A stretch of 59,030 nucleotides of DNA, filler included, from Catajapyx aquilonaris (GCA_000934665.2; 2 parts of 2 records of this genome joined end to end with filler, not necessarily neighbours in it); one strand, 5' to 3'; shown: positions 2,888 to 27,792, counted from the first letter of the whole stretch. Numbers and translations are program-made. The notes: generated by a model not told the origin, from the sequence alone.

Positions 2888-4754
2888 CTATTCATGGTAT
2901 GGATTATGCAGCGACTGGATAGACCCCAGCCTTGCCGGGTCCTGCGATGGGTAGTGGATGGTGGGAGGTGGTCCTGGAGGTGGCGGAGGGGCCACGGTGC
3001 CAGGAGGAGCAACCTGGCTGGGCAAAGGGGGAGGAGGACCAATGCCTGGGATTGGTGGCTGTGGGGGTGGGAAGAATGGCGGGGGAGGGGCAAACATAGG
3101 TGGAGGATGATGCATCTGCGGGGGTGGAGGTGGTGGAGGCTGAGGCGGGGGGACTGGCATGGGTGGCGGAGGGGCTTGCGACGCAGCAAGTGCCACCGGT
3201 GGAGGGGCCTGCAAGTTGAAGAAATCATGAGGAAGATGGTCTGGCGGTAGGGGAAGTGCTGCTGGCAGGCCAGGCACTGGCTCCAATGGATTCCCTCCAC
3301 CCTCCGGTATGATACCTCCTCCATGTGATCCACCATCTCCGCTTCCAGATTCCGCCCCCATCCGGCCTTGACTCCGACCCCACTTGATGGACAGGCGGCG
3401 CCCTTGCAATATCAACTTATTGAACGTGTGCTCCGCGGCCAGTTCAGCAGCAGCACGCGATGTGAACTGGACGAAGGCGCACTGCTGGCGTGTCACAACG
3501 CTTATGCTGCGAATCTCACCATACTGGTAGAAGTGGTCCCTGTGGTTACAAATTAAAGATTGTTAGTAGCACAAACCTCAGTTAGCTCAAGGTTTCAGAC
3601 ACCAAGAATAAGGGTTCCACAATAAAAGACAGTAGAAAATGATCTGAACCAACCTGAGTTCCTTATCTCCAATGCGATCACCAAGATTTCCAACGTAAAG
3701 TGTCGTAATAGACAGGTCATCAGGTGGTGCTAAGCAAGGCATCTGAGCTGCTCTCCTCAGAAGTTTCTCAGCCACAGGGTCGTTGACACCGTAGTATCTG
3801 TCCTTAATGTTCTGGTCGGCCAGTGGATCCTCAGGATCCGTGGGCTTCTCATGCCGGTAGGGACACTCCTCCCCACGCTTGCATTCCCCTTTAACCCAGA
3901 AGGAGCAAATGTGAGGGCGGTTACGCTTGTAGTATGGTGTGGTTCGGGCTAGTTTCAGCAACAGGTCAGATGCAGCTGCTGCTTTGGAGGCTGCAGACAC
4001 AGCTGCTATGGCTCCTGGACCACCAATTGCAGCACCCACTGCTCCCACTGGAGTAGTGCCATCTGTCTGCGATATCTAATCCAAAGAAAAACACCAATAA
4101 ATGCACTAATGCTCAGGAACGCTTAACACTAAGTTATGTCAGTGCGACATGAAAATTGCCCAGCGAATTAAACAGTCCACAAGATGTGGGCAATGTTTAT
4201 AACAGAGCGGTATCATTTCTGGGCCAGGAAACACTGTTCCGAATTGAACTGACCTGCCTATCGACGTTCTGAATGTAGTACTCCTTATTGACGTCCGACC
4301 TGGGCAGCTCCTCCTTGATCTTGAGTGCAGCATCTCTGACCTGGATGGGCAGCCCATACTCCAAGTCCAGCAGGCAAGTCTGGCAGACGTTCTTCATCTT
4401 GGAGCATGTCTGGCAAACCTCTGTCTTCTTGAACCTCATGCGTGCACCGGGGCACCACCTGAAGACGGTGAAGGGCCTGGAGCAAATCTTGCATTCCTTC
4501 CCGTACCGCTCCTTGGTCATCCGTATGTACGGGTTGTCTCCCAGGCATGTCTGGCACAGCACAGGAAACTCCTGCAATGGGAAAGATGAGAAGTGAGCCC
4601 CATTCACACAGCCAAATGCATTGTAATTCTATTGCAATGAGCTTCTAAAGTACAGAAGGTGGGCATGTGAAGCCTTGGCGGTATGGGCATGAGTACTCAC
4701 GGCGTCCTCCCAGTTCTGCCGGTTGTAAGTGTTCGTCCCCTTGGAGGTGGCCAT
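2888..4754 (-). CDS. RBM22: Pre-mRNA splicing factor RBM22 (Slt11/Cwc2 family), 4 coding exons
   Basis: Exons (minus) 4754-4701, 4571-4254, 4075-3654, 3539-2888, all GT-AG and phase-consistent. Protein [36 protein letters not shown]..., CCCH finger ([19 protein letters not shown]), RRM (TTLYVGNL...CAFVQF), Pro-rich tail ending [18 protein letters not shown] on minus at about 2449-2454. Confidence 0.97.
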
Positions 4755-5080: not shown

Positions 5081-5908
5081 ATGAAACTATTAAAACGCAC
5101 CTAGTTTGATTATTCCAAGGCTGAAATAACCTAGCTGTTATTTCCAACCAGGTAGCCAACTGCGAGAAATAATACTTGTAATCAATTATTCGATTTATTA
5201 GGTTAGCAATTGCACTGTACTCCCGATTATCCGTGCATTGCCAAAAATAATAAACATTCAAGCCCGAAAAAATGATAAAATACCACCCATCACTTCAACT
5301 CGCCGTAAAGGTCATTTCTAGGCCGAAAATGGAAAAAAGACCTGCGCCATACTACAGTATTTTTTGGTGCAACTTGTGTATCGATTGAATCCTTTTTTGC
5401 CGCCACAGAAATGTAGACATGTCGAATCCTCCTATGGTCTGAAGCCACTAGATGAGAGTCTATAAGGTTCAAACCAGGTTCAAACGGAGGGCAGGAAGTG
5501 GGGGACAAACAAGTCTTGATCACTCAGGTCATGGGCCATCCTGGTTGTAAGGGGGTGGCACGTACACTTTGTTGCATCTTTCTGAAACAACTCATGTTAT
5601 GGTCATGCTACCCATCAACCTCTACAAGTGTGGCATTCTTTGGTGGTGACACCTTGGAGCTGTGACATGAATGAAAGCATACATCAAGTGGTAGGTACGT
5701 GAACATTTATTCTCCCAACACAATCATACACAAATTCACGCCTACGTAAAGACATCAAATGTGTTATGATGATCCAGTATGGCAAAAATGATGGGCAGGA
5801 AAAAAAATATAAAAAAAAGACACATAAGCCTTACTGGTTTGAATAAAAATAACATCAGAACGAAAATCAAGATGCACAATAAAGAATACATGTGCTCAGT
5901 TTTGTGTT

Positions 5909-8900
5909 TCAGAAGGAGCTGTAGTTGGATCCCCCCATTTGGCTTCCAAACCCAATGCTGCTGCTCATGCTGTAACTGCTTGGGCGGAAGCTGCTTCCCA
6001 TGCCTAGGAGACAACAAGAACACACATCATTCTTACACTGAATTGGTCACGGAAGGAAATTTAACACCAAATATTGGTAGGATCGGCCAAAATGCATTTT
6101 AAACCTATTCTAGCATTATCCTATTAAATGACATTTTCATTAAAATTACAGAAATCTTCCAACTCTGAATCAAGCAATCACACTAGCTTTTCCCAAAAGA
6201 AGTTAGGGGCCGGAAGACAACACCAACCTCCATTGTAGGAGCCAGTGGAGTAACCGGAACTCATGGTCGAGAAGGTGGCACCAGCAGATCCCATGGCAGA
6301 AGGTCCCATGGCACCAGGACCTCCCAGGGGTGAATTGGCTCCCAGACCATTGTCCGGGGAGGAGTTCAGGAACAACTCAATGTATCGGTGCTGCATGTTT
6401 GCCTTGTCCTGTCAACCATAGAAGGAAATAGTATCAGGGATGAACATAGGACAACCACCTGAAACCCTGCCGACTGTAGAGTATGCAGAGTATGCCTCAC
6501 CTTGGCCATGGCCTTGACTGCCTCGTCGTGGCTGGCAAACTCAACGTCTGCTTCTCCTGATGCTCGGCCAGTGTTGTCATATATCAGTCGGATGTTTACC
6601 GGTGTCAGTGGATGAAAGAACTGGTTGATGGAATGAAAGTTAACATTAGGCCATGTATCCACCTTAAAGAGCTAACCACTCAGGGAATTGGGAATGAAGA
6701 TGTGGAGGTGTGGACAATAGGTACATGTACAAAAGGTGCAAAAGGCAAGTGCAATTTACCATCCAGTGAACCTAAAGGGGCAGGATCCAGGAATTAGTGA
6801 GTGAGAATGACATGTCCCCCTGAACTTGTGCAAATCTTAGCATAAACTGAACCAAGACATAGCAGCACTGGTATTAATTTCTTTGTCTGACAATCTCATT
6901 TCGTGTGAAATGATAATGGCATGCATGTGTCAAGAAAAGTAACATGAATTTTATGCAGTTCCACATACCTGTGCCATGCAAACACATCCCCACGCACCAA
7001 GAATATATCAAAAGTCGTGCTCACCTCAGCAATCTCAGACTCGCTGGACCTGAATGGCAGTCCCCTCATGTGCACGCAGTGTCCTCCGCTGCCACCCTGC
7101 CAGGACGCTCCTCCCCCTCCAGCCCCACCCCCACCTGACCCACCCGACCCTCCTCCTCCACTACCTCTTCCAAGATACCCGCCCTTGAGAGGCCCTCCCC
7201 CACCACCCCCACCCCCTCCAATCCTCCCGCCTCCACTTGGCCCTCTCCCACCACCTCCACCGCCGCCCCATGAGCTGTCCCCGTAGCTCCAGTTCTCCTC
7301 GAAATCCCCGTAGCCGTCCATCCCTGCATTGCATTGACTCTTGGTGGTTCACTAAATCCGACCATTCATTCCCAAACCCATGCCCAAACCCTCACACATC
7401 TCTCCTGACACACTGTCAAAAAAAAACAGTCCCACCCCAACACCCAACCCTCAATTATATCCTAAGCAACAGACTCTGATGGGTTGCAAATGGTGACCTC
7501 GGCCAAGTGTAGGTCAGCATTACTTAAGCAAATAATTGCCCCGGTATATTTACATGTACACAAAAAGCAAGCAATCAACATATCTGCCACAGATTTGAGA
7601 ATCTGCTTGTCGCAAGTTTAGCACACACACTACGCAATAAATCGCTTTCAATACCAGGCCAATGTTTGTACTTCCAACCCATCAAAGTGGGGTCCAGGTG
7701 CCAATTGACATGCAACGTGTCGCGTCCACCATCCAATACCTAAAACCCACCCGTACCCCCTCATCCCCCCAAGCGCTCTGACCTAACCCCCACACCACCA
7801 CATCCCCCCGGAATATTGCACCTCAATTGGCCACTGAACCCAACCAACAAAGCAAGAAAAAAAACTTGTGATTAGCCCTGCAAATAACAGTCTTGCATTA
7901 TGACACGCTTTTTATTACATTAAGCTTCACTTAAACCTCTTCAGAGGGTGGGAGCTTATAAGTAAGAGACATCATCATATCCTGTCAAAATTAATCTCAC
8001 CCTTGTTTTTCACTCTGTCCACATTCACTCACAAAGCTAAACCTAAAACCCCTAGTTCAAAAGGTCACAACAGCTAGTAGTACAAGTGAAAAACTAAGAT
8101 AGTTTAAAAAAAAAAACAAACACAAGTGAATCTGTGGCAAAACCACTTGCATGATTTCAGGAATGTAACTTTTCCTGCTCTTTACACTCTCAAACGTTAC
8201 TGTAGTTCTTTCGAACCAATCACACTTAAAAGTAAACTTTATTTTCGCTCGGTTTTTCTGTATTGGGGGAGCTTTTTCCTCTGCTTTTCTTTGTGATTAT
8301 GAGGGTTCCTTCAATCGTGGAACGCTGTAACGAGAGTTTTCGAGTCATCACTGCCTTTGCCTTCTACAATTTCAACCTCCCTTAACCCCCACAAATTGTT
8401 AGCCATTACTTTTGTTTAATACCTTTACTGCAATGTAATCAACTGGACATACAAGCACATCTCAATGGATGTTGCAGTTCAATTCGTAATTATTTTTATT
8501 GATGTTTTGGTTCGAGGCCAATTTGGAAATCGACATTTACATTATGTACACTTCCCTTGTCTCCCATATAATGAGATATGAACAACAGCATGGTTACCAC
8601 ACCACAAGGCATTGAAAAGGTCAGCATGTTGCTGCTGTGGTCATCCCCTTTACCACTATCAACCAAATTGCAATGCCCTCCCTACCAAATCTTTAATAGT
8701 CACCACAATTACAATTGCCTCACTTGCCGAGAGTAAAGAAATCCTTAGCACTATGAGTGCATTTATAACTTGTGGCAGATACGATAGTGTGGTAGGCTTG
8801 CAGTTGTACACTTTTGAGACCATATAGAAATTTATGTACAAGTTCTTCATAAACATTTGCAATGTAATGCATTCCTAAGCAAATACCTCCTCAAATTATG

Positions 8901-11900
8901 ATTGAGCAATTATGCCTGCTGCTCCTTTTGGCAGTAATAATCCAATTCAAACAGAGGACTGCAACATCTCTCAAGCCGCACTGAAACTCATTGCACTGTA
9001 TTGTCATAATCAGCGTCACTACATTTGGCTACCCCAATCCTAAAGAACTGTAGCAAATAAGGCAGGGAATATGTAGGGCACCTCTTTCGCTTTGCATACT
9101 AAGGTTATTGGTGGAAAGGGTGCATAATTGGGTGAATGGGACATTCGAAAGCCAACAAGGCTTCATGTTTAACGTCGCACCTTGTGCACATAATTCAGAC
9201 CTGAAAATAAATGAGGCGGTATTGTAATTCCCCATTAGATGTTGTTTCCAGAAATAATTGCACAATCGTTTATTTCATTAAATGCTATTTTAAGGAGCAA
9301 CATGCAGCTGTAAAAAGTGGAGCCTTGTCCATCATCACTGTAAAAATTAAGTGAAATTCCTGCTCATTCCTTCTCACCCTGTATTCCCTTGACATGTAAA
9401 AAGATTTTTGCTACATTTTGACAATGATACCGTCCTGTCTATAGTCACTATTTTGGAATTCTAGCATTCACCTTTTCAGTCAACTAGAACACACCCTTTC
9501 CACGAAAACTCTTAATGCCAAGAGTAGGTTAGGTGTTCCACATATTCCATGTGTTATTTGCTAGGACTCTTGTTTGCAGTCACTGCTACTTCAACGTCCT
9601 CCAAGAAGGCAAAGTCATGAAGCCCAACTTCAGGGTTCCAAAACCGGACTCATCAGATTTAAGCACATAATCTGGTATCAAGCCTAATGTCACCAATTAA
9701 CTTATAAGCGGTCCTAATGTGGCAAAAGAAAATAATCTACAATCTACAAAGAATATCAGACCTTCCATAAAACGAACATAATTGGAAGTCCATTTAGGAC
9801 GTTGACTTAAATGAACCTGGTACAAAACACGCAAGTCTCTTTTTCTAAATCAAAATTTCAGGTGGAACTTTTCCCTCATTCAATATGGAAGATCCACTAA
9901 ATCGCAGGTCTGGTCAACAACTCCACAGCTAACCTGAGCTTACCCAACATTGGACACCTGTAAACCGCCGCCAGTTACATTCTTATTATTAAGTTGGAAA
10001 ATGCTTCTTGTAATAAGCATAGGGACAGTTAATTAAAACTTTGGGTTTTAAAGACTGATGCCAACTGTGCTGGGAAAGTTGCAGAAGAAGGTCACGTAAT
10101 TAACAAGTGTACAAAGCCGAGCAAACACAGCTTGCTTTGAAGTTGTAATGACCATTCACTGACAACTTAACTTGCCCAAAAAACCATACAAAACACATGC
10201 ACCACTAACACAATCAATATTGTACAGGACACTCACCCTTGAAGGACCTGGATCCTCTCCCAACAAATCGGTTCATTCCACCGAACCTGTCTCCACGATC
10301 ATATGGTGCAGGCCTCACACCAAAGCCCAAGGGTCGCATCTTTGGGCCCATGGCAGCTCTCACCTCGGACAAGCTACTGCGGAAGATCTCAATGTACCTG
10401 CGTGGTGGTAGGCAGGCAAGCAGGCAGGCAGCAGCCAGAGGGGAATGAATCCCGACGTCACAGGTGATTTTAACAAAATTGGGAGGCAAGGAATATTAAG
10501 GTCGGGTCGGGGTGAGGGCAAGAGGAAGAGAAAAAGTCCCAAGTTAGTGCCATGATCAGGGCAAAGGAAGGTAACACGTCACACAAAGGAGTGGTCTGAT
10601 CAGCTTGGCCAGATACACTTGGCACTAACTAGAGGGAGGTGACTAGGATGTGTCACTTTAGCTCAAAGTGTCAGGCAATTAACTTCCTTTAATTGAAGAA
10701 TGACTTCAGTCAAACACTAAACTCGATCATAGCTTCGGAAACTGGTTGAGCATTTTCATTCCCTTTATATCGAAACTGCATAGGATGCCCCTAAAATAAA
10801 TCAACAAATTCCATGCATTAAATCAGAACACAAAAACAAACAAATCACCTGACTATTTTAAAAGGCTGTTCTCACCTCACCTCTGCAGTTAAAAGCTTGA
10901 GTGCTCCAACAATGTCAAACCAATGAAATATTATTATGTTCCGCAAAAACCTGCCCATAATTACTGTCTGAGACACAAGACCAGGGAACGCGGAGAAATG
11001 CAGATACTACGTAGTCTCAGATCCATTTCCGAGAGTGAACAAAGCTGCACTGAAACCCTTTGATCAGAGGCCTCAAACATCTGGAAATGTACTGTGATTA
11101 ATTGGTCTTTTAACAGGGCTTTTATAAAGGGTCTCTTGTAAAGCCACGATAATTTACTTCCTAGATGGCCAAATTGCATTATTATTGTTGAGTATACCTT
11201 GCAATTATAGTTGCCATCATAGCTCAAATTACCCTGCCTGCAGTGCCAACAACTCAAATGTTTTTAGAGGCAGACAGAGAAAAGCAAAGGGAAAAAGTAA
11301 TCTTGGTAGGTTTTGCATACACAGGTTTGCACTGAAGCTTTCAACTGCACACTGTCTATGCCATGTGCATAAGGCCAAATGGTTGTAAAGGGTTGGTTGG
11401 TCCAAAGGCATTCAGACACTGCAACTATTAAAAACCTGGACTCAATCAGCTTGTTGCTATGTCACAGTGTCTGCATGTTACACTCTTGAGAAGTACGTAG
11501 TAAGATGGTCACATGACCAAAGAAATTGAAAAAATCACAACCCAATAATAGGAAGCAACTGACAGAACATGCTTTTTTTTTTTCTTTCAAAAACTGCAGA
11601 TGTAAACTGCAAACTGGGGGCTCGTATCACCAACAAAATTTTAAAAAAATATCTACCTGCAACGCATCAAAAACCCCAGAGCATTTCAAAAAAAAAAAAA
11701 AACATTATTAATACAAATGCAACAGACTTACCAATAGCAAAATTTCAGGTGGCAAGTGCTGTGCTCAGTTTTCAATAATTATTAACATGATGATACTATC
11801 ATTACTTAAGAGGTTTAGAATGGTGCACTTTTAACGCCTGAAAATTTTGCAAACTTTTTTCTCTCACTTTACATTTGACGAAAATCTACAAATGCGTTAT

Positions 11901-14900
11901 GCTTTTCTTTTCTTTTCTTTCCAGTAAGGCATGTTGGCCACATGTGGGTTCAGACACTTGGAATTTCTGGGTGAGGGTAACATGGGTCACAGATTGCAGA
12001 GTAATTATAGAAAAAGAACTTGGATCAGCCTTCACCTCCCCATCCGGCGATTTCTTCTTCCATCCCCTTCCACACTCTTCCCTTCCTTCCTTGCTTTATC
12101 ACCCACCTCTCATTTTCCTCCCAGACCACCAGCCCACCATCATCACTTCCCAAATCCTCTTCCCAATGCTTCCCACATATCCACCGTATGTGCCACAATG
12201 TATCATTTTCTCTGCCCTCTCCACTTCCTCCCCCACACCCAGGGAGTATCGTTTCCAAGGCAAGAAAATTATTTTTGCAGAAGGAAAGAAAAAACCAACC
12301 AACCAACCAACCCACCCTTACCCAGCGGGACATCCTTAACTCTACTTTGAAAAAAATTAATAACTAGGAAAATGGGAGAAATAGGAAATTTAAGATGCTA
12401 CTGCTCCAAGACGCCAACTCTTCGTAAATTTTAGACCACGTTCCAAAAGTCATAATCCAAAGAGTTGGCTGCACTATACCACCCTCACGCCAGCAATGCA
12501 AGAAACGTCCTAGCTAAAAAATAGTCTCGAAACGGACTTCAACACTGATCAGTAAATATCCATTTAAAATATATTCCTTTGGTTAACATTATAGGCATTT
12601 CAAAAACACACTTGTAATATGAAATGGTCATTATTGGTTCAATGCAACAGCAACAATGTATAGCCTGAACTTCACAATGCCAAATCCTATGTTCCTTGCA
12701 TCACCAGGTAAAAACCCATCTGAACTTCTCTCATGTGAGGTTGCACAAACTGCTTTACAGTGAAAGAAGTTGCGGGATCAAGATAAGGAATTCAGTTGCC
12801 ATTCAAGTGCAAGTGGCAACTATTCCCAAGCATTGGCAGGCAGAGGTTACCCAAGGCAACAAGTAAAATGTCAAGATTAAGAAATAAACCCACAATCAAG
12901 CTTAATGGAGTAATCACAACCCCTTCCATCAATTTCGTGAAAGACGATGGCTACCTTTGCCCGCACGTCACTTGCAAAACAAAGTCAAAGTCATAACTTA
13001 ACACAAAGAAGCCTTATAGCTAATGAGCAGTAACATGGCAAAGAGTGGGGAAAATTGAAGGGCTGAGTTATAAGCAATGACAATTGCAATAGCGTACTGT
13101 TAATTTACAATTGGGCATAATAATTCAATTCATCAATTTACAACAGCTCTAAATTTCCAATGCATTAATTTGGGAAGTAATTTGATTATTGGCAACGATA
13201 CCATTTAAAAACAAGAAATTGAAGCTTATAAGTTACAAAATGTGTATGGCCATGATTTGCAAAAATGGACAGGTATTCATACTACATGCCACCACATTTT
13301 AGGCAATCCCTAACAAGTTTTACTGTCCCAAATGAACTGCCAATTGCCAGTACTTGCAATCCACACCCTTTAATCATCAAGTGAAATGCAGGAGGGTAAT
13401 AGGGACATGCCCCAATTTCCCCCTCCCAAAGAAGGTGAAAAAGGAAACACAAGCTGAATCCTTAAGGTAAAATCTAAACCACCAACCAACCAAACCCTTC
13501 CTCCACTCCCTTCTTTTTCTTCCATATACCCCACCTGTGTCCAATCTTTTCCTTGTGTTTGAGGAGCGCTTTCTCCGCTACTTCTTTGTTAACAAACTGT
13601 ACGTAAGCCTCCCCCGTACTGCGGCCCTGGTAGTCTGTCGGCAGGGTTATCCCGTTGGGTACAATCTCCAACCCTACCCACAAAGAACCCAACGAAATAA
13701 CCACAATACAGTCTTTTCTCCCTGCTCCCTCTCCACCTTCTTAAAAAATATATAAGCAATCATATTTCCCTTTCAATCATCCTAATTCTCATGAAAGCAG
13801 CACAGTTGTAATACAATAAAAAGGAGAGGATGTAAAGGATCACTGGAAGGGATGATTAATGTAAGGGTTTATTGAAGTGATCATATGCTACTCACAAACC
13901 CATAAAACTGGTTTAAAAGTATTGGCCTAGTCTTTACAGAGGAGGAGAAAAAAATTACCTCTTTTTTCAAAGCAAGCATTTATACTGCTACACACAAATC
14001 ATGTTCGTACAAATGATTGACCAGTGAAATATTTGCTTCAATTCTAATGCTCACCTCTCACAAGACAAAGAATTACTGAGTTGTCCAGTTCACATTATGT
14101 TTATATTTAGCAATCTCATCCTTTGAAATGTCAATCTTTTTCTTTAATTGAAAAGGACCAGATGACAGCCATTATTTCAATCACACTCCTTCCCCAGTTG
14201 AAACCAGGCCAATTGCCCCCACAAACTTGGTGCCCTTACTTTCCCCATAAAGAGGCTTCCACTTCTCAATTACTTTCTTTCTCTCTAAAGCATCCCCCTC
14301 CTTCAAGATGGTCAATAGCATTAATGATGGATATTTTTTTGAGTGATATTTGGGGCCAAAACCATTGTCACTTTTCAAAAAAGAGGATGGGGGAACCGCT
14401 TTCTAACTACTTCTGTGGAGTCCACTTAAAGCTACTGGTAAACCAGGTGTGCTGAAGAAAATTCATTGCCATTTACGTTATCCCAAATCATACGTGAACT
14501 GTGTGGCACAAAATTTCTGTAACTTTAGCAATCTTTAGAAACGGAAGATGCAAATGCCCACTCAGAACACACGGGGTCCTCATCCATCCAAATACATCTG
14601 TGTGACAGATCCCAACATAAGCAAACTTCTCTGCAGGACACCTGACTCAAACTTCCAAAAATTCTTGACTTCCCCTCACAAAGATCATTATGCTGAGGTA
14701 TTTCCCCAAAATCAGAAAAATTTGGAAACGTAATGTATACAAGAAACTAGATGCTCACCCTCACCTGAGAAGAACTGTGCTATCTCCTCCTTGGAGCACC
14801 CAAAAGGTAGCCCCCTCAGGCGCACACACCCGTCATCCATTGCATTCTGAAGATTCATGCCGCTTCTCTTCACTACCCACTCCATCTCAGAGCGCTTTGC

Positions 14901-16226
14901 TTTGAAAACTAGGGAAATCAAGAACGTCAGCGAGATTGGTCTCATTTCAAAATTCTGGTTATTCATTGCTGTGCACAACTCACCTTCAATGTAGCGGTGT
15001 CCCATATGTTCTTTGTCCTTCTTAAGAGCCTTCTCAAGGTCCTCATCTGTGTCCATTTCAATGTAGGCTTCCCCACTGGGCCTACCTTCTCGAGACATGG
15101 TCATGTGAACACCAGCTTTGCCTCCCTTTACTTCGCACTCTTCTGGAACCAGGTCAGATCATGGTCCTTTAATTCAGGAATCACTCCAAGGCACAAAAGA
15201 CAAATAGCATCTTCCCATTCATTTTACATTGGTCATCTTAAGGCATGGCAATGCATACAAAGACTTCAATCACACTTGCAATCACAGGCACAATTCAGAC
15301 AAACTCCAAGAGTATTGGGACCTGCCCATCCAATGATATCATCTCAATGCAACATGGTACAGTATGTGGAAGACCTGGGCTACCAAAGCACTGACGTACA
15401 ATTTTTTAAAGGCCTGCCTGAATCACTCTATAGACATGAACCCCTTTCCTCCTCAAAACAGAGTAAACTTGTATCAAAACTGAATAGCAAAAGTATAACG
15501 ATTTCATACCGTATTACCTACATATTGCGGCATGCCGGTATAACCCGGGGGTGGCCGGCATGTGGCAATAACCGAGGTAGATTTCCGTAATTTTTATCCT
15601 TGCCAAATTTTTTGGAATGCTTCTGGTACCATACTAAAATAATGTTACAATGAAAATGGGCAAGTGTACAGGCTGTGAGAATATGTCAGTTTTGTTGCAC
15701 AATGCATTAAAAAAATGTAGAGTGTAACTATGACCAATCCCATCGTCAGCCTGCTTTGACAGGGGAACCCCCTGCTCTAACATTCTGTTTAAATAGAGAT
15801 TATTGCCAAACACTGCGATTGAAAACATATGGTACAGGTACCCTATTTGGAAAATGTGCCTTTTCGATAGCCTTTAGGTGAATTTCGATTTTCAGGCAAA
15901 TGTCAAGTTCAGAAAGGATCATGTAACTTATGTGAAAACCTCGCCTTATACCGGCATAGCCACCAGATCATGAATTTCTAAAAACTGGTCGACCTCGCCG
16001 TCGGCATGCCGCAATATGAGAGGTAATACAGTAAATGATTGGCCAAAAAACCTTGCACCATATTCACAAGTCTTTGCAGCTAGAACAGTATGTTCCTCTC
16101 ACCAAAAAACTTGATGATTTCATCCACAGTGGCAGACCAAGGTAGGCCCCTCACTCGGATGACATAGTTCTCATCATCATGGTCCCCACTACTCCCCAAA
16201 TCAGCTTCCTTGGATCCGTTGCTCAT
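5909..16226 (-). CDS. HNRNPH1: Heterogeneous nuclear ribonucleoprotein F/H (glorund-like), three qRRMs, 9 coding exons
   Basis: Coding exons (minus) 16226-16103, 15142-14984, 14908-14765, 13673-13535, 10397-10237, 7323-7025, 6620-6501, 6408-6228, 6003-5909; phases consistent. qRRM motifs [10 protein letters not shown] / [15 protein letters not shown] / [15 protein letters not shown] / GRSTGEA / GRASGEA, HRYIE three times; Gly-rich linker. AATAAA (minus) at about 5706-5711. The symbol is the closest vertebrate family name; insects usually have one F/H gene. Confidence 0.95.
15509..16031. mobile_element. Tc1/mariner (pogo-like) MITE in an hnRNP F/H intron
   Basis: About 29-bp TIRs CCGTATTACCTACATATTGCGGCATGCCG / CGGCATGCCGCAATATGAGAGGTAATACAG, flanked by TA. 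Confidence 0.8.
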
Positions 16227-17587
16227 CTTGAGGCAGTTAGGTCAATCTTGTTTCAAACCTTTGTTCAAGTAGAAAAAAATAACAATGCTACAATACATGT
16301 AAAGCACATCCTATAAGAATCAGTAGCAAGAAATTTTCGCTCATTTTTCATCACACACATGCACAAACATGGCCAATTTAAATTCAAGTAAAAGTTTCAT
16401 ACCGTACCAAACTACCAGCATTTTTATTTATCATTAACAAAACAGGAGCCCCACATGAAAAAATAAAGTATAAAGCCTCCTTTCACATGTGAATTTTTTC
16501 TCCGCTCCTTGGGCAAATCCTATCATTTTCTTCCTCAAGGGAGCAATTTTGTCAGCATTTCAATTATTGCTTCTGCCAATCAGGTCAGGGGGGGAAATAA
16601 CTTGCCATTACAAGATATATTAAATTGGTTTACCATACCTAGAAGACCAAGATGCAACCATGATTTCGGAACCTATTTAGGTTAAGTTCATTAATGACAG
16701 CCCTTAATTTTTCCTCTCCATGACACCAGAAATAACGATCTAATCTCAGTTTCAAGAAACCCAACAAATCACAGTGCCAACCCTCATTATTAAATTAGTC
16801 TCCCAAACCACGTCTTACCTCTGCTCAGAAGAATCTAACAATGAGCAGTTTTCCCATTACCCGACACTTTGAAAGGTTGAAAAGAATACTCGTGCCAACA
16901 GTTATGATGCAAGGAAAATTGAATATTTTGGTGCCACGTAACTTCATATCCAACACCTCACACAATAACTAACGTCACTTCTGAAATTGAGCGCATGAGG
17001 AGAAAAGACTTTGCTCCTTGGAACAATGAAATGCTATTCTAGGAATGTGCTATTCTTGCTGTCAATGCTATTGAAGAGAAAAGAGCCAATAGTAATCATT
17101 GTGTATGACATCATGCATCACAATGAGTACATTCCTAAATTCCTTGGTACATTCACAATTGAAACGCTAACGAGTTAATTCTTCTTTCTTCACTTCTGCT
17201 TCTGTGGGAGCTAATATTGGCATTTGAAATCCCAATGCACTGATCTCGAAATGCAGGAATAGATATAAAATGCTGGTTCCAAGGCAAACTTTTGCAATGA
17301 TAAAACTAACCCCACCCTGACTTTTGACTGAAATGTGGATTATAAAGCCCAGCATTCTCATCCGAATTACGGTTTGCATGTTAAATGCCATTATGGACAC
17401 TGTGTCCTGATCTACAGCATGTACAGCCAGCCAGTGCCTTGTAAATAATTTTGGACTTAGGACTACACAAAATTTGAGACATATTTTGCTAACACACGTG
17501 GTTTTCCAGTAACTGTGCAAATGAAAGCACTTCTTTTTTCTTTGGGGTGGGGGGGGGGGGGATTCCCAAGGGAGGGCGCTCTTAAAT

Positions 17588-20435: not shown

Positions 20436-21183
20436 TATTATGGCAGAACTCTTTGGTTGTCAACCTCCCACCTTTAAAGTTTCCATGGAGATACCATAAT
20501 GCAGCAAAGTAAACAGTGTCAACAAACACTAACAGAAGGGAGCATCCTATTGTTGACACTATTTACTCCATTTTCTGAGAGAATTTATTGTTCCATAATT
20601 TTAAAAAGCCACAGTGCCATTCAGGGTATGGAAAAGTATCAAGTTTTCTTTCCCTTGCTGATGATGGCATGGACCACTAACTTATACCACATACCAGTAT
20701 TGTCGGCACACAAGTGATCCACACAGTCCAATTTTGTCAGGCTATTTTTAACATCAAGAAGCATTTTTCTGCTCCATCATCTAGTAAAGTCCTAACGATG
20801 TAAGGAGCCAGTAAGCCAAGTTTTTCTCTCTTCGCTTGCATGTAAACAAATGCAAGGTCAAATGTTTTGCTTATGATCATTTCGAAACTAGTAATTTGGA
20901 ACTGGTGTGCTTCACTTGTATCCCCAACGACATTGTGCATCCCACATCTGGAGCTCCCTCCAACCCTACCACATCTACTCCGCGGCCTAACCGGTTCCAC
21001 CCACAGTGCCTATTCCGCCCTCTCTCATCCGGCAAATCCCTGCGATTATTCCGCCAATCTCGCCGGCACCACTCCAAACCCCAGAATACCTGACCAGCGT
21101 CGCCAGACTGCGGAAGACCGGCCCCGGCAGCCCCGGGGGTTCACCCACGGAAGAGAACACAACAAGCAAAGCCAGGCGATTAC

Positions 21184-21430
21184 GTTCTGTTCCAAGATGG
21201 CGTCCCGATGCTGGCGTCTCTGTCCCTTTTTTTCCCCCGCCCCGTTCCATCCCGTGTTCTTCAGCCCCCTCCCTTCCCAACTGCCCATGTCCCTGCCCCT
21301 GAGTCGACCCCCTGTGCAGTCACCCTGCTCTACTCACTGTACCGTGGGAGGTTCGGTCCTGGTTGGAATTCGCCGGTTTGTTGTGCCGGGAAGAGAACGA
21401 CGCACCTCCTCGCTCGGCAACAGAAGAAAA
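21184..21430 (-). other. Probable non-coding first exon of the hnRNP F/H gene
   Basis: CpG-rich stretch ending in donor AAC|GTAATC (intron starts 21183), with YY1-type CGCCATCTTG just upstream of the donor and a pyrimidine-rich leader. It would splice to the acceptor at 16258. The 5' boundary is approximate. Confidence 0.6.
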
Positions 21431-22930
21431 AGAAATGGCGTGCCCTCTGACGTCACTAGGGAGACAAGGGAGGGGCTGGGGGAGGGGCAGGGGAGTGGGG
21501 GGAGGAGGAGGAGGGTCCGAGGGAAAAGCGGGGGTGGAAAATAGCATAGCGCACTATGCCGGGATGCTGGATAGTGTAAACGGATTCTGATTGGTCCAAA
21601 CTGGTACTGTGCGGAAATTTCAAATTGTTCAAAACCCTCCTGGGTAGTGTATAATCAAATTAAACTTAAAATTAATATATTTATTCAAAAAATTCGTCAG
21701 GAGGATTATATTGATAATGTGTGCCTATCTGCCAACCTGCATGGGCCTCTATTTGTGGCAAAGAAATAAAGTGTAAAAACTTTTCGAACATCCTTGTAAT
21801 AATTTTTGTCTCAGTATATTATTTTTTAATTCTGTCTTAGTCAATGTCAAACATTTTTGTACACATACTATTTTTGGTTAATTATTTTTATATTATTTTA
21901 TACTATCATGTGCCATATGTCACTCAATTACATAAAAGTAAAATAAGAAATAAGAAAAGAAAAAAAGAAAAAAAGAAACAAAAATTCTTCAAGTTATTTT
22001 ACTCTAACTGTAAGTGGGCTTTGTAAACTTGTACAGTGTGTTGACCAAGGTGTTGAATGTATGTAAATTGCTATGGAAGAATTTCCCTAGGTACATGTTT
22101 CCATGAAAATGGTTTTTTTTTTCATGTAATAGTTTACAGTTTATTTTACAGATAATTTTGTTATTGTTTATTTTGAGCATTTTATTATTATTATTTTTGC
22201 AATATACAGTATGCTCTTACTGACTTGATCCTTTGTAGAAGGTAAGTGGACTGTCCGCACAGCAAAGTATAAGGGTCTCTATCTCTTCCTGGGAGGTACT
22301 TTTCCACGGTAGGGGACATAAACTGCAAGCTGTGGTAAGTAGCTTTCTAGACTGACAGCTGATTTATTTCATGAGCATTCTCCTACGCGGTAGTGACAAC
22401 GACAAGCTGATAAGGGTGCTGTTTGTTATTGTCCTGCGCAAGGTCCTGCGCCAACATACGCTTGAATTACCCGCGAAATGATACTAGCTAGTGTGTTTGA
22501 AGAGTGGCCTGTTACAAAATCCATGTTCCCGATTGTCTACCGAAGTGAGCGTCGTGGTGCACGTTAATATGTAAAATATTTAATTTTAAAGTCTGCCGCG
22601 TGCATCTCCCCCTGGTGGAATAACATTGCAAGCAGACGGAAGTAGGGATGGGCAACACTACCAATCAGCTACTATCCAACTGCTATAACAGTTGCGAAAG
22701 AACGTTAGGTGCTTGCAGTGCCCTTGCTGATTAGACCGCTCGTGGAATCGGTGCAATGGACACGATTACTGCAGATTGGATTTCAGGACACGGAATCCGC
22801 CTTATGAAACATGCGTAGCCCGCTCGAAAGGAGCGAACACCCTGGTAGTTACCCTCGCTGCCATGAGGGGATGAAGGAGCAGCTGCGCTTGAAACGGCCC
22901 CCCTCCCCTGTCAGTGCGATCGGCCATATT
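21431..22930. promoter_or_regulatory. Divergent promoter region between hnRNP F/H (-) and MOB1 (+)
   Basis: Two CpG-rich blocks flank an AT-rich core. TGACGTCA at about 21448, CCAAT box at about 21589, CGGAAGT at about 22637, CCAATC at about 22661, CGGCCATATTG at about 22921. Confidence 0.55.
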
Positions 22931-23305: not shown

Positions 23306-26300
23306 ATGAGTTTCCTGTTGTGAGTATCTCGGCCATCATTCCAATATTGGGAGACTGTCAGGTGTAGGGTTGTGTTACGAATAATTTTATGGTTGCACAA
23401 AAATCGTCAGTTTCATAAGGAAAGTGAAAATCTTTCGTGGCCATCAGTGTTGGCAAGTTGCCCTGTATACACTGTTTCCTAAACCACAATAGGACTTTGG
23501 GAGGAAAGGGAACTAGATTGCAGTCTGTTAGGGTGCTCTGCAGCAAAGTGTTTAACTTTTTCTGGAGAAATGCATTATTGCCTTTGTCAATAAATTATTG
23601 GAACTGGATTGATTTGTACAGTTCACTCGTTACGCATAGCAGTCCAAAGTTGCTGTTGATTATCACTGACCATTTTGGCTTGATGTGTCATTGGTCAGTG
23701 ATCTGCTTGTGTCCATCTCACCTGTCAACAGTACAGCACTCCTCATACCCCATAATGCAAATTAATCTTTCATCATGGCCTTACATTTTATTGGAGTTTT
23801 CCTTTCGTATTCGTGTTTCGTTTATTTGGAAAGCAGAGATTGGGTCCCTATTTAAGATTTGAGGGTCAGTAGGAAAATAAGTTTTGCGATGCTGCAGTGT
23901 CAAATCCATACGATGGAGAGGGTAAAGAAGAACATGAGCAGGAATGTCCATTTTTCCGGTACTTTATACAGTGCTGGACATGTTAGCCGTCGCTGAATGC
24001 TTTTTTCCGGCGACTGCGGCGGCGGCATTACCTGGCAACCCCGTCCGGCGGGCCAATTCAAACATCAGCCCATGGAGAGCGCTTCCATTGTTGCTACTGT
24101 TTACAAATCGAGTGAGTGAGTGCGCAGGCAGAAGAGACCCGTCGCTGGGTCGCCCGCGTCACTCACTCGATTTGTAAACAGTGGCAACAATGGAAGCACT
24201 CTCCATATGCTGGTGGTTGAATTGGCCCGCCGGACGGGGTTGCCAGGTAACGCAGCGCCGTCGCCAACGGAAAAAAAACATTCAGCTACGGCTAATTTGT
24301 CCAGGACTGTACCAGCGGTTCTCAAACTGTGGTACGCGTACCACTGGTGGTACTTCAAGCCATGCCAAGTGGTATTCATGTGGCCTGCACATATGACTTT
24401 GCAGTCGTTTTACCTGTTTATACGCCTCACGCTTTTTAAAACCTATTCTTTAACTAGTTTTATATAACTTTAACCTTATAATATTATAGTCATTACTGTG
24501 ATTATAGTGACATTTTCTTCAAAACAACACTGGTGTAAATTAACCATTCATTGACAGTTGTACTTCAGTTTACTGATCCTCATGGAGTGGTACTTGTTCA
24601 AAAAAGTTTGAGAACCACTGCTTTATACAATGGGTAGGCATCATCTGGCAAGTGCAGGTGTAGTAGCCATGGGACAAGGCTGAGTGCTGAGCAGAGTGTG
24701 CCCATCCACATTCAGGGAGAAGTCATGGCAGACACATGTGTATTGGGCACATGGAGTAAGGCAGATGAAGTGAGGCCACTACAGAGAGTAGATAACGTCA
24801 TTGACTTGTGCAACGTTCTTGTCAGTAGTGACTGGGAGGTTGTCCTTCATGCTTGCACGCCCATTGTGAAATTGCTGTAACTATTGCCAAACCATTTTCT
24901 TAGACATGATGTCTGGACGACTGGACTGTGCACCAGCACAAGCAGATGATTTTCGTATGTTGAATGTTGAACAGTGGCAGGGCAGCAAACAACTGCCCTC
25001 ACTTCGGATACCAGTGACACACTTTTGTCTGCCGTGACTTTTCCTGGTGGAATGTGGGGATGCATGTTCTGCTTGGCATTTGGTTGATCGTCTGATGGCT
25101 GCCACGCCTGTGCATAAGCTGCAAGATGGCACCTACCCTTATAAAGAATTGGAAGGATTGACGTCTCTGCTCATGCTCATCTATCCATCACATGACATCT
25201 ACACTGTAGCATAGTAGAAATTATTTTCCTACTGATTGTGTGTTGACATAATCAGCAATACATCAGTAAATAAAACGAGCTGTATCAAGCTCTCAAACTT
25301 GCACAGTTACCATATCTGCAGTGATGCCACCACACCACACCCCACCACAAACCCTCTGCCCAGCCTCTGCCATCCCGTTGCAAGGCAATGAAATAACATG
25401 TGAAAAGTCAAGGAAGCCAACATGTGACAGTACACTTCTCAGCACATCTACATATCAAAGATAAGTTAACCAGTAAGAAATGGGATGTAAAGTACAAGAT
25501 TTGGCCAAGACATTTAGAAATTTGCATCAAATTGTCATTACATTGCTAACCAATGGTGGCAGAGATGTAGTGGCAATCGTTTTACTGCTACTTTTTGTGC
25601 CTAATTCACTGGCTAATGTGCTCTTGGCTCTTTCTAGTGGAAACCGTTCATCCAAGACATTCAAGCCTAAGAAGAACATCCCTGAGGGCACCCATCAGTA
25701 TGACTTGATGAAGCATGCTGCTGCAACACTTGGCTCAGGAAACCTAAGGCTTGCAGTTATGCTGCCGGAAGGAGAGGATCTAAATGAATGGGTTGCAGTC
25801 AATAGTAAGTTATCGTCATATTATGATCTATCCAGAATTGGCCGTTAACCAGGAAGATGTGTTTCGTTTTTAAGACACTTTGATCATTGGCATTTTTAAA
25901 CTGCAGCCGACACTATACAGAAATTCTCACTTTATAGCGGTCGACTTCTTCAACCAGATCAATATGCTTTATGGCACCATAACTGAGTTCTGCACAGAGG
26001 ATTCGTGTCCCATAATGGCGGCAGGCCCCAAGTATGAGTACCACTGGGCAGATGGTCAGACAGTGAAGAAGCCCATAAAGTGCTCTGCCCCCAAGTACAT
26101 AGATTACCTGATGACCTGGGTGCAGGATCAGCTGGATGATGAGACCTTGTTCCCGTCAAAGATTGGGGTGCCCTTTCCCAAGAACTTCCTGTCCATTGCA
26201 AAGACCATTCTGAAGAGGCTCTTCAGGGTGTATGCCCACATTTACCACCAGCATTTTGCTGAGGTAGTGCAGCTTGGAGAGGAGGCTCATCTCAACACTT

Positions 26301-27792
26301 CTTTCAAACATTTCATTTTTTTTGTTCAGGTAAGCTGCAGACAGGGGTTAGCCCCAATCTTAAGACAGAATCTGGTACCATGCTTTTTAACGAGACAGTG
26401 GAGTAAATGAAACTGTGGTATAAGAGTTTTATAAAATGCCACAGGTACAATTTGTCATTTGTGCAAATGTGCTTGTGGCCCTCATTTTCTACTGATTTGC
26501 AAAGTTGTACATTTCTCACAGTGTTTGTTAAGGGCGCCAGATATCTACGCGATTTTTCCAACTCGCGAGCTAAGTTTAGCCTAGTCATGGGTGCAGCGTT
26601 CTCTTTGCACCGCCGATGCAGGCGTCTCGCTGGAGGTACGGACCTGAAATTTTCGCAGCACGGCGAGGAAGGGCCAATTGAGCCCCAGACGAAGTTGCGA
26701 TCAATTCAGATAATTGAGATAGCTACAAGGAGAGGCGTTTTTGAAAAACGGCTAAAGGCATCTTGGCTCTGAATGCGAATTTGGGTAATATCGAGACTAT
26801 ATTCTATGGCAAAAGTATTCCTCTCTTACCCCTCCAAAGTGCGAGTTGGTCTATTGGTTTTTGCACTAAATTGAAAACTGTGACACCACTGCACCACGTA
26901 AATAAAACAGTTGGTAGCCGAGCTGTGCCTAGGGCCAGTTTCACCGAGCTCAGTATAACTTAGAACCTCGGTTATAACAAGAATTGCCATAGCAACCATT
27001 GTTGTCAACAATGAAAACTGAGAGTTTTTCGAAAAGAAACTTGGATTTAAAATATACTGAGCTCGGTGAAACCGGCCATAAGGGACTAAACCGTGTTCTT
27101 TTTTGACAACGTTTACTCATATTGTTGAGCAATGCCCCCACTGAGCAATGTGTCAACAAAGAGAACAGTATTTAGGCCCTTAGACACGGGTCAGCTACCA
27201 ACTGTTCTACTTTCTGAAGTACCCCCTCCGATTTTCCACGGTGCAATGGTGTTGTGGTTTTCAATTTAGTGTAAAAACCAATAGACCAACTCAATCGCAC
27301 TTTGAAGTGGTAAAAGAGGAATACTTTTGCAGTAGAATATCGTCGCGATATTTCCCAAATTCGCATCCGGATGCTGTCAGCCGTTTTTCAAAAACCCTTC
27401 CCCTTGTAGCTATCTCAATTATTATCCTAGTTGATCGAACTTCGTCGGGGTCTCAATTGGACCTTCCTTGCCATGCTGTGAAAATTTCAGGTCCGTACCT
27501 CCAGCAAGCCACCCGCATCGGTGGTGCAAAGAGAATGCAGCACCCATGACTCGGCCAAACTTGGTCTGCGAGTTGGAAATATCATGTAGGTATCCGGCGC
27601 CCTTAAGTGGGAAATTTTGCAAACTGTTGAATTAACAAGCTGACTGGTGGCCCACAGTAGCTGGAAGTCTTGCCAAATAAACTTATTTAAAAATTTTAAT
27701 TTCAGGAGTTCAGCCTGATTGATCGTCGAGAATTGGCACCTTTGCAAGAACTGATTGAAAAACTTACCACTAAAGACACTCCTCTGCGATGA
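23306..27792 (+). CDS. MOB1: MOB kinase activator 1 (mats), 4 coding exons
   Basis: Exons 23306-23319 (MSFLF), 25638-25804, 25938-26329, 27706-27792. Protein MSFLFGNRSSKTFKPKKNIPEGTHQYDLMKHAAATLGSGNLRLAVMLPEGEDLNEWVAVNTVDFFNQINMLYG...EFSLIDRRELAPLQELIEKLT. Confidence 0.97.
23969..24309. mobile_element. Palindromic Tc1/mariner-type MITE in MOB1 intron 1
   Basis: TA|CAGTGCTGGACA...TGTCCAGGACTG|TA; arms of about 150 bp are nearly complementary. Confidence 0.85.
24313..24620. mobile_element. hAT (Charlie-like) MITE
   Basis: TIR CAGCGGTTCTCAAAC / GTTTGAGAACCACTG; TSD CTTTATAC (right copy 24621-24628, left copy split by the neighbouring MITE). Confidence 0.85.
24760..25015 (-). pseudogene. Decayed mariner transposase N-terminal fragment
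   Basis: Frameshifted SEVRAVV...IMSKKMVWQ*LQQFHNGRASMKD...TTDKNVAQVNDVI resembles the mariner HTH region. Confidence 0.55.
26532..27602. mobile_element. Kolobok-like long-TIR non-autonomous element in MOB1 intron 3
   Basis: TTAA|GGGCGCC...GGCGCCC|TTAA (purine-start termini, TTAA TSD); arms of about 400 bp (26532-26930 vs 27181-27602). Confidence 0.8.
26932..27078. mobile_element. PIF/Harbinger-like MITE nested in the Kolobok-like element
   Basis: GGGCCAGTTTCACCGAGCTCAGTAT / ATACTGAGCTCGGTGAAACCGGCC; related copy at 38261-38385. Confidence 0.7.

What the first reader, a model, noticed from the sequence alone, without database searches (positions are those of the whole stretch)
7324..13700. 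Candidate layered G-tract/AS-NMD autoregulatory circuit in the hnRNP F/H gene
Seen: these otherwise AT-rich introns contain four discrete G-rich islands on the transcribed strand (about 13475-13700, 12025-12345, 7740-7860, 7370-7450). Each abuts splice signals whose use puts a premature stop in the mRNA, and a GTTGGTTGG/GTTGGGTT motif recurs beside them. Known: hnRNP F/H qRRMs bind GGG tracts, and human HNRNPH1 limits its own level by NMD-coupled splicing. Inference: the protein meters itself through several switches (skipped exon, poison micro-exon, poison cassette, alternative acceptor). I am not aware of this architecture being described for insect glorund-type genes.
Basis: partly seen in the sequence, partly recalled or inferred. 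Interest (0 to 1): 0.8.

Follow-up and report, generated by a model that had tools for sequence, protein, structure and literature searches.

The report
Self-limiting G-run switch, hnRNP F/H gene
An insect gene for a G-binding splicing protein has that protein's own binding motif packed around one frame-shifting exon, a layout shared with distant animals and matching the known human self-limiting switch; three further proposed switches remain unproven.

Summary
A minus-strand hnRNP F/H gene with three qRRMs carries four G-run islands on the transcribed strand at the stated places. All four predicted events give premature stops in silico.

One island is strongly supported. The 139-nt exon E4 (13673-13535) has G-runs in its 3' splice site, at synonymous Gly codons, on its donor (GTGGGG) and downstream. 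I found the same layout in 9 other lineages from metagenome contigs. E4 flanks hold 6.9 G-runs on average, against 1.3 for other exons (p=1.6e-6). Conserved Gly positions use GGG in 26 of 35 cases in E4, against 13 of 81 elsewhere.

This matches the known vertebrate HNRNPH1 circuit: poly-G-dependent skipping of a 139-bp exon, frameshift, then NMD. Drosophila glorund already has a known NMD-target isoform.

The other three islands are not supported. They are not conserved upstream of E6 in the loci that cover it, they share no intronic sequence with other loci, and similar islands occur elsewhere in the window. No RNA data could be laid.

Verdict: an insect member of a known autoregulatory kind. 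The layered circuit is unproven. This scan noted the same self-motif theme for hnRNP L in this genome.

The parts
6228..16226 (-). hnRNP F/H-type gene, coding exons E1-E8 (a last exon follows near 6005-5912)
   Evidence: Exon joins give 442 aa with no stop and three qRRM-like RGLP[WF] cores. The E5 peptide is 89-81% identical to named insect hnRNP H/F proteins. E4 matches Pfam RRM_1.
13535..13673 (-). E4, a 139-nt frame-shifting exon (second half of qRRM2); the proposed regulated exon
   Evidence: Skipping puts TGA at 10362 in E5. Conserved Gly positions use GGG in 26 of 35 cases, against 13 of 81 in E1, E2, E3 and E7 (Fisher p=2.5e-9).
13674..13700 (-). E4 3' splice site with G tracts (GGG at 13690-13688 and 13679-13677) between the pyrimidines and the AG
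   Evidence: Sequence. A GGG lies within 15 nt of the AG in 9 of 10 lineages. It is the same kind of element as the REPA G-tract silencers.
13478..13534 (-). E4 donor GTGGGG plus the downstream G-run and (GGTT)n cluster
   Evidence: Sequence. A G-run overlaps or closely follows the donor in 9 of 10 lineages. Downstream flanks hold 1-7 G-runs per 110 nt, against mostly 0-1 for other exons.
10360..10362 (-). Premature TGA reached when E3 is joined to E5
   Evidence: In-silico join.
12039..12323 (-). Island 2, 15 G-runs in mid intron 4, starting with a (GGTT)n tract
   Evidence: 0 of 300 Markov simulations reach it. L006 has an analogous pair of islands in its intron 4.
12322..12363 (-). Candidate 42-nt poison cassette: 14 of 15 pyrimidines then TAG, donor GTAAGG, then island 2
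   Evidence: Anatomy. There is no RNA evidence.
7746..7878 (-). Island 3, 8 G-runs including a canonical G4 motif at 7770-7746
   Evidence: It is not seen upstream of E6 in the termite-like loci or L006.
7822..7833 (-). Candidate 12-nt poison micro-exon (in-frame TGA) with a weak donor, GTGCAA
   Evidence: The acceptor ranks 24th of 668 AGs and the donor 83rd of 702 GTs by a crude PWM. There is no RNA evidence.
7371..7450 (-). Island 4: two canonical G4 motifs (7450-7431 and 7391-7371) flanking a T10 tract and an upstream AG
7396..7412 (-). Upstream acceptor at 7412 (89 nt before E6); it can also be read as a 17-nt exon with donor GTGAGG
   Evidence: The acceptor ranks 5th of 668 AGs, against 12th for the real E6 acceptor. 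Stops fall at 7368 or 7068. There is no RNA evidence.

Best explanation
The window holds an insect gene for an hnRNP F/H (glorund-type) protein, which binds G-tracts. Its 139-nt exon E4 is wrapped in that protein's own motif: GGG inside the 3' splice-site region, GGG at synonymous Gly codons in the exon, a donor that is itself a G-run (GTGGGG), and a G-run cluster just downstream.

I read this as the insect counterpart of the vertebrate HNRNPH1 'essential exon' switch. When the protein is abundant it occupies these G-runs and hinders recognition of both splice sites, so E4 is skipped. The frame then shifts and a stop appears 12 codons into E5. The mRNA is degraded by NMD, or yields a truncated protein.

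Shown here: the gene model, the G-run anatomy, its restriction to E4 and its recurrence in 9 other lineages, and the in-silico stop. Inferred by homology with human and mouse experiments: binding, the direction of the effect, and NMD.

The other three islands (mid intron 4 and two before E6) are most likely lineage-specific extra binding platforms, or neutral low-complexity DNA. Their use as poison exons is possible but has no support yet.
For: Gene and family.

Exon length: E4 is 139 nt. The regulated mouse/human exon is 314-175 = 139 bp, and skipping it gives a frameshift, a PTC in the next exon and a CHX-sensitive transcript (passages; passages). In silico the window behaves the same way.

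Human cis-elements: poly-G motifs upstream of, downstream of and within the exon, bound in iCLIP. Their mutation raises inclusion.

Cross-species test: 110-nt flanks of E4 hold on average 6.9 G-runs in 10 lineages, against 1.3 for 40 rows of other exons (Mann-Whitney p=1.6e-6; without the window 3.6e-6). With all rows kept, the figures are 7.1 (n=11) against 1.14 (n=64), p=8.8e-8, while C-runs are 1.0 against 1.02.

Codon test: GGG codons at conserved Gly positions number 26 of 35 in E4 and 13 of 81 in E1, E2, E3 and E7. The paralogous xGEA motif uses GGG in 8 of 9 lineages in E4, 1 of 8 in E2 and 0 of 6 in E7 (Fisher p=2.5e-9).

Splice sites: a GGG lies within 15 nt of the 3' AG in 9 of 10 lineages, and a G-run on or just after the donor in 9 of 10.

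Enriched words in E4 flanks: TGGG 50 against 15.6 expected, GTGGG 20 against 3.8, TTGGG 17 against 4.0 (present in all 10 lineages), GTTGGG 8 against 1.1.

Related literature: G tracts between the pyrimidine tract and the 3' AG are hnRNP H/F-dependent silencers. Drosophila glo has an NMD-target isoform.
Against: There is no RNA evidence for this species.

The direction of regulation is borrowed from vertebrates. G-runs downstream of a donor can also enhance exon use, and Glo knockdown in flies changes alternative 5' sites and cassette exons in unspecified directions.

The lineages are unnamed metagenome contigs and are not all independent. L006 and L013 are identical around E4. L027 and L072 are nearly so. 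The upstream flanks of L010 and L072 share words. One lineage, L018, has only 1+1 G-runs.

Some non-E4 flanks are also G-rich: 5 of 64 rows have 4 or more runs. These include E1-downstream in L029 and L031 (4 each), which I dropped as duplicates, and E5-downstream in L078 (6).

Orthology of E4 with the human exon rests on equal length (a tool result) and on a human peptide that I recall, not on a call.
Confidence: 0.6

Rival explanations
1. Four G-tract-gated switches all operate and together meter the protein through NMD: E4 skipping, a 42-nt poison cassette in intron 4, a 12-nt or 17-nt poison micro-exon, and an upstream acceptor before E6.
For: Each element has the layout of pyrimidine tract-AG, short exon, GT donor and G-run cluster, and each gives a stop. 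The acceptor at 7412 outranks the real E6 acceptor, 5th against 12th of 668, and the real one has almost no pyrimidine tract. In L006, the two strongest G islands of 13.4 kb lie in intron 4. Each directly follows one of that intron's 3 GTRAG sites, and one has a strong acceptor 67 nt upstream. GTTGGTTGG occurs on the minus strand only in the gene, at three of the islands.
Against: There is no RNA evidence. Termite-like loci and L006 have no G islands upstream of E6, and the termite-like intron 4 (L072) has no GTRAG followed by G-runs. Intronic similarity is no better than 20 nt at E>=0.011. The architecture is common in the window: 9 GTRAG sites with 3 or more G-runs on the minus strand (5 in the gene) and 6 on the plus strand. 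The window has 47 G islands in all. The micro-exon donor GTGCAA is weak, ranking 83rd of 702. A stop after intronic inclusion is expected by chance.
Confidence: 0.15
2. The G-runs are ordinary intronic and exonic splicing enhancers. They help a weak-donor exon and long AT-rich introns to be recognised. E4 is constitutive, so there is no homeostatic feedback, or the feedback is positive.
For: The E4 donor departs from consensus (GTGGGG). G-runs are described as intronic enhancers in several papers that I saw only as search listings. Glo depletion affects 5' splice-site choice.
Against: In humans the same exon is repressed by the protein through these motifs. G tracts placed between the pyrimidine tract and the AG act as silencers. 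A G-run lying on the donor itself should compete with U1 binding; that step is my inference.
Confidence: 0.15
3. The islands act at the DNA or transcription level. G-rich non-template DNA forms G-quadruplexes or R-loops that slow the polymerase, with splicing effects only secondary. Alternatively they are neutral low-complexity DNA throughout.
For: Canonical G4 motifs lie at 7770-7746, 7450-7431 and 7391-7371. Comparable islands occur outside the gene on both strands. (GGTT)n looks like a microsatellite.
Against: Neutral drift does not explain synonymous GGG codons restricted to E4. It also does not explain strand-specific enrichment at one exon in 10 lineages while C-runs stay flat.
Confidence: 0.05

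Closest known systems
Vertebrate HNRNPH1 essential-exon autoregulation (exon 4 or 5 by numbering), cross-regulated by HNRNPH2
   Same: The protein family is the same. The exon is 139 nt, and skipping it shifts the frame to a stop in the next exon. Poly-G motifs lie upstream of, within and downstream of the exon.
   Different: Here nothing has been tested on RNA or protein. The animal is an insect with, as far as the window shows, one gene rather than paralogs. The G-run layout extends to unnamed distant lineages, which the papers I read do not discuss.
REPA G tracts (G tracts between the polypyrimidine tract and the 3' AG; Sohail et al. 2014, PMC4320613)
   Same: A GGG sits between the pyrimidines and the AG of the E4 acceptor. 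Human HNRNPH1 and HNRNPH3 are listed as hosts 'predicting an auto-regulatory circuit'.
   Different: That paper reports that about 87% of such tracts arose in mammalian ancestors. At this exon the tract is present in 9 of 10 lineages, including this insect, so it looks ancient.
Drosophila glorund isoform glo-RC, an NMD target (Hansen et al. 2009, PMC2689934)
   Same: It is an insect hnRNP F/H gene with an unproductive isoform that has an early stop and is stabilised on upf1 knockdown.
   Different: The passages I read do not say which splicing event makes glo-RC, nor that G-tracts or the protein itself control it. I could not compare the fly gene structure.
hnRNP L autoregulation through a CA-rich intron and poison exon (Rossbach et al. 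2009)
   Same: The logic is the same: an hnRNP's own binding motif is clustered in its own intron next to an unproductive splicing event.
   Different: The protein, the motif and the event type differ (inclusion of a poison exon rather than skipping of an essential exon).

Membership tests
HNRNPH1-type essential-exon AS-NMD autoregulation | The gene encodes an hnRNP F/H protein with qRRMs that bind G-tracts | tested here: met
   The gene model has three RGLP[WF] cores. Identity to named insect hnRNP H/F/glorund proteins is 89-81%. There is an RRM_1 match. G-tract binding is taken from the literature.
HNRNPH1-type essential-exon AS-NMD autoregulation | The regulated exon is the 139-nt exon whose skipping shifts the frame | tested here: met
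   E4 is 139 nt with phase 1 to 2. The vertebrate exon is 314-175 = 139 bp. That both encode the same part of qRRM2 rests on my recall of the human protein.
HNRNPH1-type essential-exon AS-NMD autoregulation | Skipping creates a premature stop in a downstream exon | tested here: met
   TGA at 10362, 12 codons into E5.
HNRNPH1-type essential-exon AS-NMD autoregulation | Poly-G motifs flank the exon on both sides and lie within it | tested here: met
HNRNPH1-type essential-exon AS-NMD autoregulation | The skipped isoform exists and is NMD-sensitive | not testable with these tools
HNRNPH1-type essential-exon AS-NMD autoregulation | [quoted passage not shown] | not testable with these tools
   This needs CLIP, knockdown or minigenes.
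REPA G-tract 3' splice-site silencer | A G tract of 3 or more lies between the pyrimidine tract and the 3' AG | tested here: met
   The sequence is ttctttgtGGGtag|GG at 13686-13672. It is present in 9 of 10 lineages.
REPA G-tract 3' splice-site silencer | The silencing depends on hnRNP H/F | not testable with these tools
   It is known only for the human reporters.
Conserved poison cassette exon (SR/hnRNP type) | An intronic exon whose sequence is conserved across species | tested here: not met
   blastn of introns 3-5 against L072, L006, L010, L027 and L071 gave no hit longer than 20 nt and no E-value below 0.011. The species compared are distant, so this is weak evidence against.
Conserved poison cassette exon (SR/hnRNP type) | Inclusion is seen in RNA and rises on NMD block | not testable with these tools

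The most novel reading that the evidence does not exclude
The G-run code around the 139-nt exon (3' splice-site G tract, synonymous GGG codons, G-run donor, downstream cluster) is ancestral to animals. That would make it one of the oldest hnRNP self-limiting switches. In this insect lineage it has been extended by up to three further G-run-gated unproductive events: a 42-nt cassette, a 12- or 17-nt micro-exon, and a strong upstream acceptor between two G-quadruplex motifs. Together these would give a multi-threshold, cooperative dosage control.
Probability: 0.15. Interest if true: 0.65.

Novelty: new member of a known kind. Interest (0 to 1): 0.4.

Why it matters
If the reading holds, the self-limiting switch of the hnRNP H/F family is not a vertebrate feature. 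It is an old, strongly constrained RNA code that even fixes synonymous codons.

That gives an evolutionary yardstick for the intronic poly-G mutations seen in mantle cell lymphoma. It gives a simple single-gene insect model for testing how G-runs and RNA G-quadruplexes set a protein's level. It also warns annotators that a stronger-looking upstream acceptor before E6 would give a wrong protein.

The three extra islands would matter only if RNA data show that they are used.

Tried and rejected

Whole genome: none is held.

Splice-site PWM: I built it from 44 donors and 89 acceptors of the orthologous loci. It is trained on the very sites in question and ranks two real acceptors below 100th of 668, so I give it little weight.

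Intron alignment: I searched for a conserved poison exon and found nothing beyond chance.

Transcript search: I looked among the 78 loci for E4-skipped transcripts. The cDNA-like loci that carry E3 (L001, L002) also carry E4.

Other checks, all negative or uninformative:
- Rfam scan of 5800-16500 at E<=0.1: 0 matches.
- Pfam on four ORFs inside the islands: 0 families. They are therefore not alternative coding exons of a known domain.
- The short database proteins sharing E5 (P0003, P0005, P0006, P0014-P0032 and others) turned out to be ORFs read across the exon from genomic contigs, not isoforms.
- Earlier notes of this scan, searched by place, sequence and words: none on this gene.

Literature: searches for prior description in insects were glorund + nonsense-mediated (10 papers) and glorund + autoregulat (6 papers). 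From the listings, and from the passages I read in three of these papers, none describes G-tract autoregulation of glo. One search found none on the evolutionary conservation of the HNRNPH1 poly-G exon.

A rejected idea: a C-run tract just upstream of E5 might pair with the G-runs. I rejected it as a general mechanism because L072 and L006 lack C-runs there.


Full report
What is there. The region lies inside a minus-strand gene. Joining eight coding exons (E1 16226-16103, E2 15142-14984, E3 14908-14765, E4 13673-13535, E5 10397-10237, E6 7323-7025, E7 6620-6501, E8 6408-6228) gives 442 residues without a stop. All borders are AG/GT, and the protein has three RGLP[WF] cores typical of quasi-RRMs. 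The E5 peptide found 103 proteins at E<=0.001 among 154 candidates. The best named ones were hnRNP H/F/glorund proteins of Ephemera danica (89%), Neocloeon triangulifer (85%), Ladona fulva (83%) and Zootermopsis nevadensis (81%). An RBM22-like gene follows downstream.

The observation. On the transcribed (minus) strand, G-runs of three or more average 2.0 per 200 nt over the window. They reach 9+6 at 12001-12400, 6+9 at 13401-13800 and 5+6 at 7401-7800, with strong strand skew.

The clustering is denser than a first-order Markov model of the same introns allows. There are 4 windows with 7 or more runs per 150 nt against 0.30 expected, reached in 0 of 300 simulations. The island at 12323-12039 has 15 runs in 300 nt, also reached in 0 of 300.

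Against uniqueness, with a looser threshold the window has 31 minus-strand and 16 plus-strand islands, and the number per intron is not unusual (26-53 of 200 simulations reach it). Of the 12 minus-strand islands with 8 or more runs, 5 lie in the gene.

GTTGGTTGG occurs on the minus strand only in the gene, at three islands. Five of the nine minus-strand canonical G4 motifs lie in the gene, three of them in the last 450 nt of intron 5. The predicted unproductive events all give stops, which is expected of almost any intronic insertion.

The decisive comparison. I therefore looked for orthologous loci.

A scan of metagenome contigs with an alignment of 13 arthropod proteins (12 insects and a tick) returned 78 loci (195 pattern matches, 109 confirmed, 80 kept). 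tblastn showed that 11 of them are genomic pieces carrying the E4 equivalent. L006 and L013 are identical there, and L027 and L072 are nearly so. That leaves 9 lineages besides the window.

Some lineages are termite-like, at 91-98% identity to the termite protein. Others are as far from the window as I recall the human protein to be, or further. The neighbouring exons of L040 are at most 56% identical to any named protein.

In every lineage the exon begins after an AG and ends CACAG|GT, giving 139 nt; L040 appears to carry one extra codon. In 110-nt flanks, E4 has between 1+1 and 3+7 G-runs, with a mean sum of 6.9, while 40 rows of other exons average 1.3. This gives Mann-Whitney p=1.6e-6, or 3.6e-6 without the window.

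For that test I kept one row per lineage and exon and dropped duplicates. Two of the dropped rows (E1-downstream in L029 and L031, 4 runs each) were higher than the row I kept. With every row kept the result is 7.1 (n=11) against 1.14 (n=64), p=8.8e-8. Ten of 11 E4 rows and 5 of 64 other rows have 4 or more runs. C-runs are equal at 1.0 and 1.02, so the signal is strand-specific. One of the upstream runs is the junction AG|GG itself.

Fine structure of the E4 module. A GGG lies within 15 nt of the 3' AG in 9 of 10 lineages (for example ttgtGGGtag, ggttGGGtag, ttttGGGGcag). The donor is GTGGGG or GTGGGA in 7 lineages, and a GGG follows within nine bases in 2 more.

Inside the exon, conserved glycine positions use GGG in 26 of 35 cases, against 13 of 81 in E1, E2, E3 and E7 (Fisher p=2.5e-9). 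The same xGEA motif of the three qRRMs uses GGG in 8 of 9 lineages in E4, but in 1 of 8 in E2 and 0 of 6 in E7. This points to selection on the RNA, not on the protein.

Words enriched in the flanks against the rest of the same genes' introns are TGGG (50 against 15.6), GTGGG (20 against 3.8), TTGGG (17 against 4.0, in all 10 lineages) and GTTGGG (8 against 1.1, in 6 lineages).

What is known. The human and mouse evidence comes from passages I read:
- HNRNPH1 limits itself by suppressing inclusion of one exon. Skipping shifts the frame, and the transcript rises with cycloheximide.
- iCLIP shows binding at the exon.
- Lymphoma mutations hit poly-G motifs upstream of, downstream of and within the exon, and they raise inclusion (preprint 10.1101/686956, PMC13001508).
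- HNRNPH2 does the same to HNRNPH1. The two RT-PCR products are 314 and 175 bp, so the exon is 139 bp and the stop lies in the next exon (PMC12637667).

G tracts between the pyrimidine tract and the 3' AG are hnRNP H/F-dependent silencers. HNRNPH1 and HNRNPH3 are among the host genes, 'predicting an auto-regulatory circuit', and about 87% of such tracts were judged to have arisen in mammalian ancestors (PMC4320613).

In Drosophila, glo-RC is an NMD target with an early stop, found in two studies (PMC2689934). Glo depletion mainly changes alternative 5' sites and cassette exons (PMC4617972).

So unproductive splicing of an insect glorund gene and the human exon-skipping circuit are both in print. 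In my searches (listings plus passages of three of those papers) I did not find a statement that the G-run layout of this exon is shared by invertebrates.

The other three islands.
- Anatomy. A 42-nt cassette (12363-12322) has 14 of 15 pyrimidines before TAG and a GTAAGG donor that runs straight into island 2. A 12-nt micro-exon (7833-7822) has a good acceptor but a weak GTGCAA donor before island 3. A T10-gacag acceptor at 7412 sits between two G4 motifs, 89 nt before the real E6 acceptor, which has almost no pyrimidine tract. It can also be read as a 17-nt exon with a GTGAGG donor.
- In favour. In L006 the two strongest G islands of the 13.4-kb locus lie in intron 4, each just after one of that intron's three GTRAG sites, and one has a strong acceptor 67 nt upstream.
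- Against. The termite-like loci and L006 show no islands upstream of E6, and L072 has no such site in its 5.6-kb intron 4. L078 does have 5 runs just before its E6. No intronic similarity exceeds 20 nt. In the window the pattern 'GTRAG followed by 3 or more G-runs' occurs 9 times on the minus strand (5 in the gene, one of them the real E3 donor) and 6 times on the plus strand.

These three elements remain plausible but unsupported.

Mechanism proposed. At high concentration the protein binds the G-runs in the 3' splice-site region, in the exon, on the donor and just downstream. That should hinder U2AF and U1 (inferred; the silencer role of such tracts is shown for human reporters), so that E3 is joined to E5. 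The frame shifts, TGA is reached at 10362, and the mRNA is lost to NMD.

I put 0.6 on this. I put 0.15 on the full four-switch circuit, 0.15 on a plain enhancer role without homeostatic feedback, and 0.05 on DNA-level or neutral explanations.

Verdict. The finding is best filed as an insect member of a known autoregulatory kind. The added result is that the G-run code of the regulated exon, synonymous codons included, is shared by distant lineages. Supplements of the cited papers were not consulted and may already contain the human flank sequences.

Noticed in passing
P0004 and L057:1-270: A 248-aa database protein from a 1172-nt contig reads E1-E5 correctly spliced and then runs into intron 5. 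Its tail KFGLVYLSV equals the intron read-through of termite-like locus L057. This suggests a transcript with intron 5 retained in another insect.
   Followed up: partly
P0001 (Ephemera danica annotation), at the E5/E6 junction: The mayfly protein carries 17 extra residues (WLLTFGLTYGIVLWST plus G) exactly at the E5/E6 junction. It looks as if its gene model used an upstream acceptor before E6, the same kind of site as 7412 in the window.
   Followed up: no
window 13673-13535 and 10397-10237: E4 and E5 together are 300 nt. Skipping both would keep the reading frame and remove 100 residues, namely the second half of qRRM2 and the linker.
   Followed up: no
window 10440-10561: A C-run tract on the transcript (6 G-runs on the + strand) lies in and just upstream of the E5 acceptor region. 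It is the only such tract in the gene. L072 and L006 have none at that place.
   Followed up: partly
window 20900-21600: Dense G-run islands lie on both strands (13 and 11 runs on minus, 13 on plus). A minus-strand GTRAG at 21337 is followed by 10 G-runs. This may be the promoter and a non-coding first exon of the same gene.
   Followed up: no
window 50936-51274 (+) and 52612-52950 (-): Two identical 112-aa open frames in inverted orientation about 1.3 kb apart. This is an inverted duplication or the ends of a mobile element.
   Followed up: no
window 3000-4628 (-), 25477-26410 (+), 44400-44879 (-), 47628-47969 (+): Neighbouring genes judged by eye from ORF translations: an RBM22-like zinc-finger/RRM protein, a MOB1-like kinase activator, an ATP-synthase-subunit-s-like protein, and a cysteine-repeat protein resembling Atg14. 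All names are recalled, and none was tested.
   Followed up: no
L071:5400-5700: In one termite-like locus the G-runs cluster just downstream of E6 (2, 4 and 3 per 100 nt) rather than upstream of it.
   Followed up: no
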